Source of the DNA: a plasmid
Length of the DNA stretch: 64,000 nt
Reading direction: 5' to 3' (one strand)
Assembly (NCBI RefSeq): GCF_056746865.1
Contig: NZ_JBWKMP010000002.1
Shown here: positions 39,001-45,000 of the stretch, one piece after another
Layout: each line of letters begins with the position of its first letter
Position numbering within the stretch: position 1 is the stretch's first letter
Program-made: the position numbers

Positions 39001-42000
39001 TCCGATGCTTTGTTACCAACAACCGTGATCTCTTCATTCATGTTTGGAGGGGTAACAATCGTCACTGGGTCAGTGAAAAAAAGAATCTTTGCAACCAATA
39101 ACCCAATGACGGCTATTGAAACAGTATTAATGCGGATAAGTTTTGTATCACGATTAATCAGGGCGCTGTATGTAATTCCAGCACCTGACGCTTCAGCTTG
39201 TGGGCTAAATCGTTTTTTAATGTCCAAAAAACGTCCCTTAGCACTTTCATCTTTCTTTACGTATGACTGTTCAAGATCACCGTTTTCATCCTTTTTAGAT
39301 TTTTTGAAAAAAGGGATGTTAATGCCACTTAGCATTTTCATTCATAGCTCCATCAAGAATACAAATCTCTGATAAATGGATCGTTGAAATAACGGCTACT
39401 AAAAACTGCTTTACCTGGCAAAAAACCGAGCCACCAGAGTCTGTGTTTTAGCAATCCTCTTATTCCTGACTCAGCTGCTTTGTTATACGCAATCCAATAT
39501 ACAACCGCTACTACAACAGAAAACCCGAAGCATTCGAAGATATTCCCAAATGCAACCAGAATGAATGCAAGCCCTATTTTTTTTGCATCCCAAAACAAAA
39601 TCAGTAGAGGCATGTTGATCCTGAAAGGGAATCTATAGGTATGCTGAGGAACGTCGTTCTGCTTACTCATTAAAAATCCAGAGAGGGGGATGAACCCCCT
39701 CATGCATGATTAACAATAAATTACAGCGGTACGCCAGCATCCATAAAGGTGCTGATAATTTTCTCGCCGTTGGCCATTACCAGCATCATGAATAATGAAA
39801 CCAGTGCCAGGCCCGGGTTAGACTTAAGGACAGAGAAATATACGCTTGAGATCAACATCGCGGCTGCCAGAATTTTGCCCGGAGCTCCAGTCATACTTTC
39901 ACTCATGTATGACCAAATATCTCCCAGTGCCCCATCATCTGAACCCGCATATGCCAGACCGCAAAAAAGCACGGTCAGCAGAACAAACAAAATCACTTTT
40001 GCGCTTTTTGTTTTAAAAAGTGCAGCCGTGTTAGATTTCTTTTCACTAAGGCCAATATTTAAAGAAAGTTCCATAATTACTCCGTGTAGATTTGAGTTCA
40101 CGTAAACGCGAATGAATAATACTTTTTTATTCCGATCCTTCCGTTCGCATAAACCCCCTTTTTTTAACGTTTAGCGATTGGTGAATTTTTAAGCAAAGGG
40201 GCCTAAAGCATAATCTTTGAAAAGTACCAGTGAACGCTTAGTAAAAGTTTGAAAGAGGGGAGGGGGTAAGATTACGTTAAGCTCAATCCTGAAGCTGATG
40301 AGACTCCTCAAGCATAAAAGTCACTTTTGATGGTTTGAAAAGCTCTAACTAGATATCGGGCAGGTAACTAAGCTTCATATCTAATCTTTTTTGTTCCCTT
40401 AATATCTATCTCTTGATTCTGAGAAGGCCGCATATCACTGTGCTCCCTGGTTCGGCAACTATCAGTTGGAGAAACTACATACAATCCTCGGCCGGTGCGT
40501 CATTCATCTAAATGCCTTTTACACCTCTGGGCGTGAGTGGGACTTTGTCTTGTCCATATGAACATCATTCATTCGAATGCTTTTGGCCAATGCTATTTAA
40601 GCAAATGCTTTCTGGCTGAGTCCTTTTGCGAATGAGTCTTTGATATAACTGCATGAATTTTGGGTTGTTTGGTGTACTAACAAAACAAAGGCATTTCTTT
40701 GAATGCCATTGGAGTTGTGATGCTTCTGATATTTTTTTGATCTCATATCAAACACATAGTCCTTCTGATGCCCAATGTCATAGATGTCTTGGACCATTCT
40801 CGCTCTTAACAAAGCTGTACTGTGTGTCATTCGACCTAATGCCATTCACCAAAATGCCTTTTTATACCACTGCATAGCTATGCTCGGGATACAGTGGCAA
40901 ACAAAAGCATTTCAATGAATGATTTTTTGGGATACCGACATCAAAAGCATTTGTATGAATGTAAGAGGCGTAATCCACAAAAGGCATTCACGTGAATAGA
41001 GTGCGCACGAAACCATCTTGCTCCACGGCATTTAATGAATGGGCTAGCATGTACGCTTGAGCCAGAAAGGCATACAGATGAATAGTCAGGAGTTCGTTTG
41101 AAAAGTTACTTTTTTGCACATTAAGCCGAGATGTAAGACCAGTAGTAAAAGAAGCACTAAGCATAGCACTGATAAATAACTTATTTTTCAGCATGTTATA
41201 ACCAGTGCATACCTGGTAGCTTTCAACCTTGTTTGGCGAGGGCCAGCTTAGGGCTTCTTTTGAAGATCTGAAATTGTATGTCGCGACCTTTCTTAACTTC
41301 TTGATAATCGAGATATCCGATAGATTCAAGTTCCCGCATTGCTTTACGAATTATCTGGTTTTGCGTACGAATAGGGGTTGTAAGAAGCAACCTTTCCCTC
41401 AACCGTTTCATATTAACGAACAACGTACCAGCTGGCATTGCTTCAAAATAAATATAGAGAGATTGCGCAGCTTCTTTTTTAGCCAAAATGTATAGAACCT
41501 GAAGGCTTAACAATGTCTTATGGTCGTAACGATACAGTTCCCACATAGAAGGATCCCCAACCAACTCAACAGTATCGCTTTTTGGATCAATCATAGCCTT
41601 CTGCACCAGATGCGTTACTGTGAACCGACCACTCCGAGAGTCTGAGAAGGCAAGCACTACCGATGCAAGGTTCATTAATGACTCTTTAAAGCGCGCACGA
41701 GTTCGTTTGTTGATGTTTGTTGAACTGATACCACACATCTTCGCAAACTCGTTAAAAGTCAGGGTAATCTTCTCGGAAGTAAAACCATATTTACTGAAAG
41801 CCATGATGATCCCGAGCCAGCACTTAAAGTCGGTAGACATAGATAGTTTGACACCAGTTATCTTGATGTCGTCATAACCCTCCGATCTTGCAATTTCCAT
41901 ACACGAAAGCTCATCAGAGGCATCAACTTCAAAGTTTCGGTCGCGGTTTTCTTTTGTGCCGACAGGGGTAAATACACTCAATCTCAACAGGGCCACGGGC

Positions 42001-45000
42001 TGAACCGACTTGGACGAGTTAGGCGTCAGTTGATAAGTCTTACCTGATTCATTACTGGTTACGTCAAAAGGATGGATTAACTCGTTGTTTTTAATCATTA
42101 ACTTAACTCGTCGGTGATAAGATTTTCATTTGGCAAACTGTTTATAACATATTCTTGCAAATGCTTTTTACGCATTAACCTAAATGCCATAAGCATTCCA
42201 GTAAATGCCTTCCTTATTCATTCAAATGCTTTTCGCATGCATCCGAATGCCGGATCCTTTCATAAAGTCACTATAATCAATGAGTTAAAGATGCCGTGAT
42301 CTTTACTTGAACTCTATTGATCTTTAGTGATCTAAAGAATTGATCTATCCTGTTGAAAACAATGATAAGTCCATATAAAACAAGGAATAGCGCTCCTTTA
42401 ACAATATCTACAGATCGCAAACGGAAATGAACGAGGGTCTACTATCATTGTTTTATTCAAGACAGTTTTTATTTTAATTTTATTAAGCAAATTTTTTGAG
42501 TTTACCTTTTAGATGTATCAGCCCTATTTGGCAAATTTGAGGTTCATGTATCATGTAGTAAACAGGAGGAAGATATGAACAACAGCAAACATACAGTCAT
42601 TGAAGTGGATACTAATCTAGTTGAAATTGAAAAGGGATTTAATCCCCGAGAGGCGGTAATCGGAGATTTGTGTTACGAACAAGAACCTGTCAAGTCGATG
42701 ATTGTGTCAATCAAACAAGCCTTTAAGGAAGGAAGGCAGGTTGATATGATCAAGGTCGTAAAAAGAAAAGGTAAATATTTAGTTCGTCAAGGTCATACTC
42801 GTTTTCATGGCTTAAAATTAGCAATTTCTGAAGGTGCTAATATTCCAAAATTATCTGTTATCCTAATCGATTATAAAAACGAAATTGAAGAATACCTTGA
42901 GAACCTCGATGGTAACAGAAGCAATGGGCTAAATCCGGTTGGGCAAGCTCATGCATTAGCTCATGCTGTTAGTCTCGGGTATTCGGTTGAAGAACTAGCA
43001 ATGCGATATCAACGATCAACTACCGCAATTCGTAATATGCTAAAAATCCTTGATATGCCATTAGAGCTTCAACGTTTGATTAGCCTAAATCTAATCAAAA
43101 AAACGCTCGCCATTGAAATAATGTTAAAATATTCCAACGATCACAAAATGGTTTTAAAACATATAGAAGGTTTCTTACCTGGCGTTAAGAATATTGAGAC
43201 TACAACGAGCAAAATTGTAGGCATACCTGAACACAATGCAGCTGGAGCAGGACCAGACACCTTAAATAAAGGCGGACCAGAAAAGAAAAATTCGGCAGTC
43301 ACTCGTAAGACTTTGGGTATTAAGCGCCTCTCGCATAAGAAAACAGAACGGCTAAAATCTGAATTTCTTGAGCTTGTGGAAAGTACACATACGGAATCTA
43401 TAACGAATACTCAAACAGAACTAAAATTTGGTAGAGATAGTGCACACTTGTTCAAAAATGTTAATAGTAATAATGTAATATTTTCCAATGATGGTGTTCA
43501 AATAATCTTGAATGATGAAAAGCTAAATATTTTATTGTCTTTACTTAACGACGAAAATACAGCAATCATTGTTTCTAAACCAAAATTAGAAGAGCTTCTG
43601 GAAATTCGAGATCTCCTTAAGGAATATTAAAAACGAGGATTAGTTGAGTGATTAAACCTATAAAGCTGACTCTTATCGATAATTATAGTGATTTGCTTCT
43701 AACTCATGAAGTCCTTAAACGCAACATGGAAGAGTTAGAACACGGTAAACGTTTTGATCAATTTCCTGAAGGGCATGACCACTATGAAAAAACTGTGAAA
43801 GAAGCTGTAGCAATCGTAGAGGCACGTTTGGAGGTGTTTCGAAAATGAAATCTCTTTTCTTTACTCTTGATGGTCATATGGTACCAGCCTCAGTGAATGT
43901 ATCACTTAACGGAGATGGAAATTATTATGCACCTATCGAAAGAGAATGTAACGAATGTGCGGGCACAGGCCACAAAGGGGCTGATTTATGTGAAAAGTGT
44001 CATGGGGTACAAACAGTTGGACCCATTATTGAAAAATTAGTGGCACTAGAGCCAATTACCTTTCTCGATAACATTCCGGAACTGCGTGTTAACCCAACAC
44101 TCGAAGCATGGAAATCCAGAAACCACGTCCTTATTGAGAAAGCAAAAAAGGCTAACACTAAGTTTTCTAATAGTATATTGGCGCAATTAGACAATAACCG
44201 TTTCTTGACAGAACGCCAGCTGGATTGTTTCTTTACAACTTTTGATGTGATGTTGTCTGAAACTCCGGAAAATGAACAAGAAATTTTAAAACATAGCTAC
44301 AATATCGGCCAGGTCATAAGCATTGAACTAACATTTACTGAAGTCAGGGCCGCGTACGCAAAAAGTAAAGGGAGTTATTTTTTTACATTTACTGGTAAAG
44401 TTAGAAATGACGGGATCGCTTTAACGGCCGATAAACAGGATCACATTTTATTGGGTGAACGTTATCATTTGACTGGAAAAGTCAGAAAATTCTATGAATT
44501 TGATTCGAAAAATTATGCTGCAATAACAGTTTTTAAGTTAAATAAACTCCAAGACAGTTAAATGTTTTTGCTGCTTAAATATAGAGCCAAGACTTTAACT
44601 GTCGTTAGGACTCACTCACGTAATATTGTTGCTTACGCAATGGGTTTTATCCCTCATAAAGATCTGCGAGTATAAATCTTTTACATTTAAATTCCCCTCT
44701 ATCAGAACCTTTTCTATTGTAAAAAAATGATAATCTTATTAATTATAATTTTAATTTTTTGTATACCAATACCATACAGTTAAGGCTAAAAGGTGATGAT
44801 GGAGATGGACTTTAAAATGCACAATGATCTGGGTCTCGGTTTCATTTGTAAAAATGCAAGAACATCGTCAAAGCCAACGTTAAGAAAAGTTACTTTTCCG
44901 GTAAGCGCATATGAAACGTCTAAGCTTTCTTTAACCGGTTTTCAATGCCCCACAGCCTGCCGTTTTCCTTTTTTTGTGCTATGCATGATAATCCATAACC

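What the first reader, a model, noticed from the sequence alone, without database searches (positions are those of the whole stretch)
40505..42260. Second, intact iteron replicon immediately upstream of the pilin gene
A RepFIB/RepHI-family initiator (291 aa) is flanked by AARGCATTYNNNTGAATR iterons on the 3-prime side (five regularly spaced) and by related motifs in its promoter. With the replicon at 54-58 kb this gives two iteron replicons within 16 kb, each with its own unrelated iteron sequence. This is a multi-replicon architecture as in IncHI plasmids, here with one initiator apparently broken.
Basis: partly seen in the sequence, partly recalled or inferred. Interest (0 to 1): 0.35.

Follow-up and report, generated by a model that had tools for sequence, protein, structure and literature searches.

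The report
Known IncHI2 plasmid replicon RepHIA

Summary
A 291-aa initiator gene (41223-42098, minus strand) is surrounded by about 16 copies of a motif, AARGCATTYNNNTGAATR. That motif occurs nowhere else in the 64 kb window (8 exact hits, 0 expected).

The window is IncHI2 plasmid backbone. The 2 kb region is at least 99% identical in about 1,100 database plasmids and about 99% identical to R478, whose coordinate 1 is this gene. It is the replicon published as RepHI1A(R478), also called repHIA. It sits next to the pilin-like gene trhA, as its 86%-identical homologue does in IncHI1 plasmid R27.

The initiator is 44.6% identical to P1 RepA, and the layout matches the annotated P1 oriR closely:
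- remnants of two tandem DnaA boxes
- four GATC repeats
- five iterons in 21-23 bp phase
- the rep gene
- a looser downstream iteron array

The 3' array is probably a copy-control locus like P1 incA.

The second replicon, RepHI2, is a 43%-identical paralogue with different iterons. Its gene is broken by a 2-bp deletion seen in no other record. The window also carries other frame-breaking indels in conserved backbone genes, so this is probably sequence error.

Already known; low interest.

The parts
42351..42368 (-). Remnants of two tandem DnaA boxes at the left end of the origin: TTATCATTG (4 mismatches to TTATCCACA) and TTTTCAACA (2 mismatches).
   Evidence: They align column for column with P1 TTATCCACA/TTATCCACT and R27 TTATCCACG/TTTTCCACA (alignment A2). 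Positions relative to the ATG are -270/-261, against -277/-268 in P1.
42298..42345 (-). Four AGATCA(A/C) repeats carrying GATC (Dam) sites at 42298, 42319, 42329 and 42342. This is the presumed origin-opening, methylation-sensitive segment.
   Evidence: GATC sites lie at -247, -234, -224 and -203 from the ATG. R27 has -247, -234, -224, -204 and P1 has -254, -231, -220, -210, -203, annotated there as Dam sites of oriR. The segment is conserved in alignments A2.
42151..42251 (-). Origin/operator array of five iterons in the same orientation as rep, in 21, 21, 21, 23 bp phase. Cores start at 42251, 42230, 42209, 42188 and 42165. It corresponds to P1 incC.
   Evidence: Motif scans. P1 incC iterons start at 993, 1014, 1035, 1056 and 1078, with repA at 1153. 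The array is conserved in position and sequence in R27 and IncHI1.
41223..42098 (-). repHIA (RepHI1A(R478)-type) initiator gene, 291 aa, intact.
   Evidence: ORF. Pfam Rep3_N and Rep3_C. 100% identical to WP_000594612.1 in many IncHI2 plasmids. 44.6% identical to P1 RepA.
40906..41083 (+). Proximal downstream array of five iterons, inverted relative to rep and 37-43 bp apart. A DnaA-like TAATCCACA lies inside it at 40971-40979.
40502..40858 (.). Distal downstream iterons, five to six copies in mixed orientation with irregular spacing, at 40502, 40567, 40595, 40690/40693 (palindromic), 40844 and a weak copy at 40828. With the proximal array this is the presumed copy-control and incompatibility locus, like P1 incA.
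   Evidence: The IncHI1 counterpart has the same motif but a different number, spacing and orientation of copies.
39721..40074 (-). trhA-position pilin-like gene (117 aa), first gene of the trhA-traL-traE-traK block. It is a neighbour, not part of the replicon.
   Evidence: NCBIfam TraA_gammapb hit, 34.4 bits, below the cutoff of 50. TraL and TraE Pfam hits on the next genes. Same synteny in R478 and R27.
55294..56380 (+). repHI2, the initiator gene of the second replicon. It is split into 190 + 157 aa ORFs by a 2-bp deletion at 55795 (CCAAAG to CCAG).
   Evidence: No record among 1,126 plasmid or 274 E. coli RefSeq hits is 100% identical.
54440..55079 (+). Upstream region of RepHI2 with two P1-like origin modules. 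Each has DnaA-box-like sequence, GATC repeats and five iterons (TGACAAYGGTAGTGA) in 21-bp phase, at 54552-54654 and 54976-55079.
56621..58121 (+). RepHI2 downstream array of about 16 long repeats with an 81-bp period. Each unit holds two inverted iteron cores.
   Evidence: Long iterons of up to 76 bp in R478 are mentioned in PMC4980987.

Best explanation
The region is the RepHIA replicon of an IncHI2 (R478-type) conjugative plasmid. It is also called RepHI1A(R478), repHI2A in some nomenclatures, or the 'IncHI2A' typing target.

It is a theta-type iteron replicon homologous to the phage P1 plasmid replicon in both protein and origin DNA. The proposed mechanism is inferred by homology with P1 and RepFIB:
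- RepA monomers bind the five 21-bp-phased iterons at 42151-42251.
- Together with host DnaA and Dam-methylated GATC repeats (42298-42345), they open the adjacent DNA and load the replisome. The origin therefore lies between rep and the divergent parB-like gene.
- The same iterons overlap the rep promoter, so RepA represses its own gene.
- The 10-11 downstream iterons (40502-41083) titrate RepA and pair ('handcuff') with origin iterons to limit copy number and cause incompatibility, as P1 incA does.

RepHIA works beside a paralogous replicon, RepHI2, 13 kb away, which has its own iteron specificity.

What is shown here: the sequence identity, the motif arrays and the positional homology to the annotated P1 oriR. 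What is inferred: binding, opening, autorepression and handcuffing.
For: Identity of the region:
- 40400-42400 is at least 99% identical in 1,105 PLSDB plasmids, many at 100%, mostly conjugative and typed IncHI2A/MOBH/MPF_F.
- R478 (NC_005211.1) starts at this rep gene. The 2.47 kb replicon differs from R478 at 25 positions.
- R27 carries an 86%-identical protein at the same place, in the order traK-traE-traL-trhA-iterons-rep-parB-like-Dam.

Initiator family: Pfam Rep3_N and Rep3_C, 44.6% identity to P1 RepA over 92% of its length, and about 45% to RepFIB-type proteins.

Origin anatomy, as distances from the ATG:
- DnaA-box pair: -270/-261 here, -277/-268 in P1.
- GATC repeats: -247, -234, -224, -203 here; -254, -231, -220, -210, -203 in P1.
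- Iterons: -153 to -67 in 21, 21, 21, 23 bp steps here; -160 to -75 in 21, 21, 21, 22 bp steps in P1.
- The left part of the origin aligns at DNA level with P1, R27 and a plasmid whose Rep is 62% identical (A2).

Origin versus control locus: the promoter-side array is conserved base for base between IncHI1 and IncHI2. The downstream arrays keep the motif but differ in copy number, spacing and orientation. This is expected if the first is geometry-constrained and the second is a titration/handcuffing locus.

Statistics: 8 exact motif matches against 0 expected.

Literature:
- Page et al. [quoted passage not shown]
- repHIA and repHI2 are listed as core IncHI2 replication determinants (PMC5034289).
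- Either RepHI1 replicon can drive R27 replication (PMC4853401).
Against: - No experiment on this exact sequence was possible.
- The two DnaA boxes that P1 and R27 keep at the left end of the origin are degenerate here (4 and 2 mismatches). No box with 1 mismatch or fewer lies in the origin segment.
- No sigma-70 consensus promoter was found by the scan anywhere in 40100-42600 (0 found, 7.1 expected). The rep promoter is therefore not located, and autorepression is assumed from P1.
- A 1-mismatch DnaA box (TAATCCACA, 40971-40979) lies inside the downstream array. This leaves a small chance that initiation occurs there.
- I could not read Page et al. 2001 or Newnham & Taylor 1994. What the minimal replicon contains rests on titles, citing papers and my recollection.
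Confidence: 0.9

Rival explanations
1. The origin is the regularly spaced 3' array (40906-41083), with the DnaA-like box inside it. The promoter-side repeats would then serve only as the operator for rep autoregulation.
For: The five 3' copies are the best matches to the motif and are evenly spaced at 37-43 bp. A 1-mismatch DnaA box, TAATCCACA, lies between copies at 40971-40979. The left-end DnaA boxes upstream are degenerate.
Against: - The upstream segment is homologous in sequence and geometry to the experimentally defined P1 oriR.
- Spacing of about 40 bp matches P1 incA (31-41 bp), not an origin array (21 bp).
- The downstream array is not positionally conserved between IncHI1 and IncHI2, and R27 has no DnaA box with 1 mismatch or fewer downstream.
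- About 0.5 DnaA-box matches with up to 1 mismatch are expected by chance in 2.5 kb on both strands (my arithmetic).
Confidence: 0.07
2. RepHIA is a silent or back-up relic in IncHI2, and replication normally runs from RepHI2. The conserved iterons would act mainly as an incompatibility and copy-sensing determinant.
For: Consensus DnaA boxes are lost relative to IncHI1 and P1. IncHI plasmids carry redundant replicons whose separate roles are unresolved (PMC4853401).
Against: - The rep ORF is intact and 100% conserved across hundreds of plasmids.
- The R478 region is described as autoreplicative.
- repHIA is proposed as part of the minimal IncHI2 determinants (PMC5034289).
- If the repHI2 frameshift in this window is real, RepHIA must be carrying replication.
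Confidence: 0.03

Closest known systems
RepHI1A(R478) / repHIA replicon of IncHI2 plasmid R478 (Page, Whelan & Colleran 2001; R478 sequence NC_005211.1)
   Same: Same locus. R478 coordinate 1 is this rep gene. Of about 2,470 aligned positions from the parB-like gene to trhA, 25 differ, and the iteron layout is identical at every position scanned.
   Different: Only about 1% point differences. One lies in a weak origin iteron (42177) and none lies in the strong iterons. This is not a different entity.
RepHI1A of IncHI1 plasmid R27 (Newnham & Taylor 1994)
   Same: 86% identical initiator, same iteron consensus, same position next to trhA, and the same origin geometry of DnaA pair, four GATC repeats and five 21-bp-phased iterons.
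   Different: R27 keeps two near-consensus DnaA boxes (TTATCCACG, TTTTCCACA), whereas the IncHI2 copies are degenerate. R27's downstream array is longer, with seven copies at 43-44 bp in rep orientation, and cannot be aligned with this one.
Phage P1 plasmid replicon (oriR-incC-repA-incA)
   Same: 44.6% identical RepA. The left origin aligns at DNA level. The order and distances of DnaA boxes, Dam-site repeats, five 21-bp-phased iterons, rep and the downstream iteron array are the same.
   Different: - The iteron sequence is unrelated (P1 uses ATGTGTGCTGGAGGG-type iterons).
- There are four GATC repeats here, not five.
- There is no right-end consensus DnaA box.
- The downstream array is longer (about 580 bp against 285 bp) and starts 139 bp after the stop codon rather than at it.
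- No par operon follows. The conjugative pilus operon follows instead.
RepHI2 (RepHI2A) replicon of IncHI2 plasmids, in this window at 54.4-58.1 kb
   Same: Paralogous initiator, 43% identical over 281 aa. It has the same P1-type layout, with DnaA-like boxes, GATC repeats and 21-bp-phased iterons.
   Different: - Different iteron sequence (TGACAAYGGTAGTGA).
- Duplicated upstream origin-like module.
- 81-bp compound repeats downstream.
- A C-terminal extension of about 70 aa.
- In this window the gene carries a 2-bp deletion.

Membership tests
Rep_3 (winged-helix) iteron-binding plasmid initiators | N-terminal WH1 domain (Pfam PF01051 Rep3_N) above the gathering score | tested here: met
   30.3 bits against a cutoff of 22.4, residues 98-215.
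Rep_3 (winged-helix) iteron-binding plasmid initiators | C-terminal WH2 domain (PF21205 Rep3_C) above the gathering score | tested here: met
   21.9 bits against a cutoff of 21.1, residues 231-275. This is marginal. No solved structure matches by sequence, and the fold was not modelled.
P1 RepA / RepFIB / RepHI-type replicons | Initiator clearly homologous to P1 RepA over its full length | tested here: met
   44.6% identity over residues 20-287, E = 1e-66. About 45% identity to RepFIB-annotated proteins.
P1 RepA / RepFIB / RepHI-type replicons | Five directly repeated iterons in about 21-bp phase immediately upstream of rep | tested here: met
   Iterons at -153, -132, -111, -90 and -67 from the ATG, against -160 to -75 in P1.
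P1 RepA / RepFIB / RepHI-type replicons | Cluster of GATC-containing short repeats between the DnaA boxes and the iterons | tested here: met
   Four AGATCA repeats at 42298-42345, aligned with the Dam sites of P1.
P1 RepA / RepFIB / RepHI-type replicons | Tandem consensus DnaA boxes at the end of the origin | tested here: inconclusive
   At the homologous columns the window has TTATCATTG and TTTTCAACA (4 and 2 mismatches). R27 and P1 have 0-1 mismatch. Whether these remnants bind DnaA cannot be tested here.
P1 RepA / RepFIB / RepHI-type replicons | Second iteron array downstream of rep (copy-control and incompatibility locus) | tested here: met
   10-11 copies at 40502-41083. Their function was not tested.
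IncHI2 RepHIA (RepHI1A(R478)) replicon | Near-identity to the R478 locus and location next to trhA in the Tra2 region | tested here: met
   About 99% identical to R478 positions 274287-274762 plus 1-2024. Synteny shown.
IncHI2 RepHIA (RepHI1A(R478)) replicon | Autonomous replication of the cloned region and incompatibility with IncHI plasmids | not testable with these tools
   Reported for R478 according to the title of Page et al. 2001. The paper is not held in the library.

The most novel reading that the evidence does not exclude
In the IncHI2 lineage, the RepHIA origin has lost both consensus DnaA boxes that its IncHI1 and P1 homologues keep at the same positions. RepHIA(IncHI2) might therefore fire with little or no direct DnaA-box binding, or be a weakened origin subordinate to RepHI2. 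If the 2-bp deletion in repHI2 is genuine, this plasmid would be a natural single-replicon IncHI2 running on that DnaA-box-poor origin alone.
Probability: 0.12. Interest if true: 0.3.

Novelty: already known. Interest (0 to 1): 0.08.

Why it matters
IncHI2 plasmids are major carriers of mcr-1, mcr-9 and other resistance genes. Their two replicons underlie replicon typing, incompatibility and host range.

Nothing new about that biology emerges here. The value of the check is practical:
- It assigns the region to a characterised replicon.
- It moves the probable origin to the promoter side, extending the feature by about 110 bp.
- It warns that the 'broken' second initiator is probably a sequence-quality problem rather than evidence of replicon decay.

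Tried and rejected
- The sigma-70 promoter scan of 40100-42600 found no site, so the rep promoter could not be placed. A TGnTATAAA extended -10 candidate that I read by eye at about 42141-42149 is not conserved in R27, so I dropped it.
- Rfam found no RNA family in the window at gathering thresholds, so there is no sign of antisense-RNA control.
- A PDB sequence search with the initiator found nothing at E up to 1. I did not run structure prediction, because Pfam plus 44.6% identity to P1 RepA already settles the family.
- NCBIfam has no model matching the 291-aa protein.
- Page et al. 2001, Gabant et al. 1993 and Lawley et al. 2002 are not held in the library.
- I considered that the small ORFs inside the iteron region (40597-40845 minus strand, 40653-40877 plus strand, 40988-41329 minus strand) might be genes. 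I rejected this because they overlap the iterons, and the downstream iteron region does not align between R27 and IncHI2.
- I considered a chance origin for the motif cluster and rejected it (0 expected).
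Full report
**What is in the sequence**

The ORF at 41223..42098 on the minus strand encodes 291 aa with an ATG start and is uninterrupted. Pfam assigns it Rep3_N (WH1) and Rep3_C (WH2), both above their gathering scores.

All lie between 40501 and 42232, and 100 dinucleotide-preserving shuffles gave a mean of 0.00. With up to 2 mismatches there are 16 matches, 14 of them in this region, against 1.9 expected. A position-weight scan and a gapped core scan bring the total to about 16 copies.

Relative to the rep ATG, and in rep orientation, the copies fall into three groups:
- Five copies in rep orientation at -153, -132, -111, -90 and -67, spaced 21, 21, 21 and 23 bp.
- Five copies in the opposite orientation starting 139 bp after the stop codon, 37-43 bp apart. 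One has a spacer one base shorter.
- Five or six further copies at 40502-40858, in mixed orientation and irregularly spaced.

**Where the window comes from**

The 2 kb around the gene is at least 99% identical in 1,105 PLSDB plasmids from Escherichia, Salmonella, Enterobacter, Klebsiella and other genera. Many are 100% identical, and most are conjugative. Examples are typed IncHI2A with MOBH and MPF_F.

The archetype R478 (NC_005211.1) begins its numbering at this very gene. Across the whole intergenic-rep-intergenic stretch the window differs from R478 at 25 of about 2,470 aligned positions, and the iteron map is identical.

The neighbours are:
- a 117-aa pilin-like gene in the trhA position (sub-threshold NCBIfam TraA hit);
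- traL, traE and traK beyond it;
- on the other side, a divergent 351-aa protein with a ParB HTH domain.

IncHI1 plasmid R27 has the same gene order, and its initiator is 86% identical.

**What is already known**

[quoted passage not shown] I saw this only as a reference in PMC4980987; the paper itself is not held.

PMC5034289 lists repHIA and repHI2 as the core IncHI2 replication determinants. It also relays the proposal that repHIA belongs to the minimal IncHI2 set. PMC4853401 summarises that either RepHI1 replicon can drive R27 replication, and that the reason for multiple replicons is unresolved. Other papers name the same pair repHI2A + repHI2C.

NCBI annotates the gene near 55 kb as RepHI2. 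The gene studied here is the one shared with R27, so it is RepHI1A(R478), also called repHIA.

**How it most likely works**

The initiator is 44.6% identical to P1 RepA over 92% of its length. The P1 record carries experimental annotation of oriR, which allows a point-by-point comparison.

Distances from the ATG:

| Feature | P1 | R27 | This window |
|---|---|---|---|
| Tandem DnaA boxes | -277, -268 | -270, -261 | remnants at -270, -261 |
| GATC (Dam) sites | -254, -231, -220, -210, -203 | -247, -234, -224, -204 | -247, -234, -224, -203 |
| Iterons | -160, -139, -118, -97, -75 | -154, -133, -112, -91 (fifth about -68) | -153, -132, -111, -90, -67 |

P1 also has repA followed by nine incA iterons spaced 30-41 bp.

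The left part of the origin aligns at DNA level among P1, R27, this window and a plasmid whose Rep is 62% identical. That last plasmid has its own iteron sequence but a perfect DnaA box at the same spot.

Between IncHI1 and IncHI2 the promoter-side array is conserved almost base for base. The downstream region barely aligns and differs in copy number, spacing and orientation.

I therefore place the origin at about 42151-42368, in the gap between rep and the parB-like gene. I read the downstream copies as an incA-like locus for copy control and incompatibility. Binding, opening, autorepression and handcuffing are inferred from P1 and RepFIB, not shown here. IncHI1 and IncHI2 share the same iteron consensus, which predicts cross-reaction between the two. 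That is an inference.

**Differences from the models**

The two left-end DnaA boxes are degenerate in the IncHI2 sequence: TTATCATTG and TTTTCAACA, with 4 and 2 mismatches. No box with 1 mismatch or fewer lies in the origin segment.

One 1-mismatch box, TAATCCACA, lies inside the downstream array at 40971-40979. About 0.5 such hits are expected by chance in this much sequence, and R27 has none there. I give the 'origin downstream' rival about 7%.

The promoter scan found no sigma-70-like site in 40100-42600, against 7.1 expected, so the rep promoter is not located.

**The second replicon and the 'broken' initiator**

RepHI2 (55294-56380) is a paralogue, 43% identical over 281 aa, with unrelated iterons of the form TGACAAYGGTAGTGA. 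Upstream there are two sets of five iterons in 21-bp phase. Each set is preceded by DnaA-like boxes and GATC repeats. Downstream there are about 16 repeats of 81-bp period, each holding two inverted iteron cores.

The gene is split into 190 and 157 aa by a 2-bp deletion (CCAAAG to CCAG at 55795) relative to pEGY1-MCR-1, pCE2050_B and R478. No record among 1,126 plasmid hits or 274 E. coli RefSeq hits is 100% identical over this 1.3 kb. The best is 99.8%, which is the 2-bp gap.

Compared with pCE2050_B, the window's proteins are otherwise mostly 100% identical. Yet it has small frame-breaking indels in several genes:
- hdtA (19114)
- two hypothetical genes (23115, 24215)
- parB (24646 and 25020)
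- the secretin gene trhK/traK (37785)
- the DUF4942 gene (49299 and 49482)

Indels are about as frequent as substitutions, and they hit essential transfer and partition genes. This points to sequence error, so the broken repHI2 should not be read as biology without the reads.

**Verdict**

The feature is the published RepHIA replicon of IncHI2 plasmids, a P1-type iteron replicon, so it is already known. The refinements are the placement and extent of the origin, the degenerate DnaA boxes, and the probable artefactual nature of the repHI2 frameshift.

Noticed in passing
window 19114, 23115, 24215, 24646/25020, 37785, 49299/49482, 55795: Relative to the closest plasmid (pCE2050_B), the window has small indels that break or locally shift the reading frame of hdtA, two hypothetical genes, parB, trhK (secretin), a DUF4942 gene and repHI2. 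Most other proteins are 100% identical. The pattern suggests indel errors in the underlying sequence.
   Followed up: partly
window 54440-55079: The RepHI2 replicon has two consecutive P1-like origin modules upstream of its gene. Each has TTATCC-type DnaA-like boxes, GATC repeats and five 21-bp-phased iterons. The sets are at 54552-54654 and 54976-55079.
   Followed up: partly
window 56869-57609 (array 56621-58121): The 81-bp repeats downstream of repHI2 each contain TCACTACCGTTGTCA and its reverse complement TGACAACGGTAGTGA, which is an inverted pair of iteron cores per unit. They probably correspond to the 'up to 76-bp iterons' of R478 mentioned in PMC4980987.
   Followed up: partly
window 27061-29603: A tandem array of about 10.4 copies of a 249-bp unit (68% matches) lies between parA and trhC. 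It accounts for most of the differences from related plasmids in that stretch. Its function was not examined; it may be a partition or centromere-like region.
   Followed up: no
window 45662-46432 (-): The plasmid encodes a Dam-family adenine methyltransferase about 3.3 kb from an origin whose opening region is made of GATC repeats. R27 has the same arrangement. P1, which has the homologous origin, also encodes its own Dam (the P1 point is from my knowledge). This may be a way to keep the origin methylated regardless of host.
   Followed up: no
window 51730-54186 (+) and 58378-60798 (-): Two paralogous genes for Ig-like domain proteins (818 and 806 aa, with similar N-termini by eye) flank the RepHI2 replicon in convergent orientation. 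They resemble the class of IncHI Ig-like proteins studied in PMC6764697.
   Followed up: no
window 51351: A 215-bp deletion relative to pCE2050_B and pEGY1-MCR-1 removes the 5' part of a 208-aa hypothetical gene. Only residues 75-208 remain, at 50949-51350.
   Followed up: no
window 40100-42600: The consensus scan found no sigma-70 promoter-like site on either strand, although shuffles give 7.1 +/- 2.7. The region must nevertheless hold the promoters of rep, trhA and the parB-like gene. This is unexplained.
   Followed up: no
window 42575-43630 (+): A 351-aa protein with a ParB HTH domain (Pfam, 26.9 bits) is transcribed divergently from rep, directly beside the inferred origin. It is conserved in R478 and R27 and annotated there as hypothetical. 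It is separate from the parA-parB pair at about 24.4-26.7 kb.
   Followed up: no
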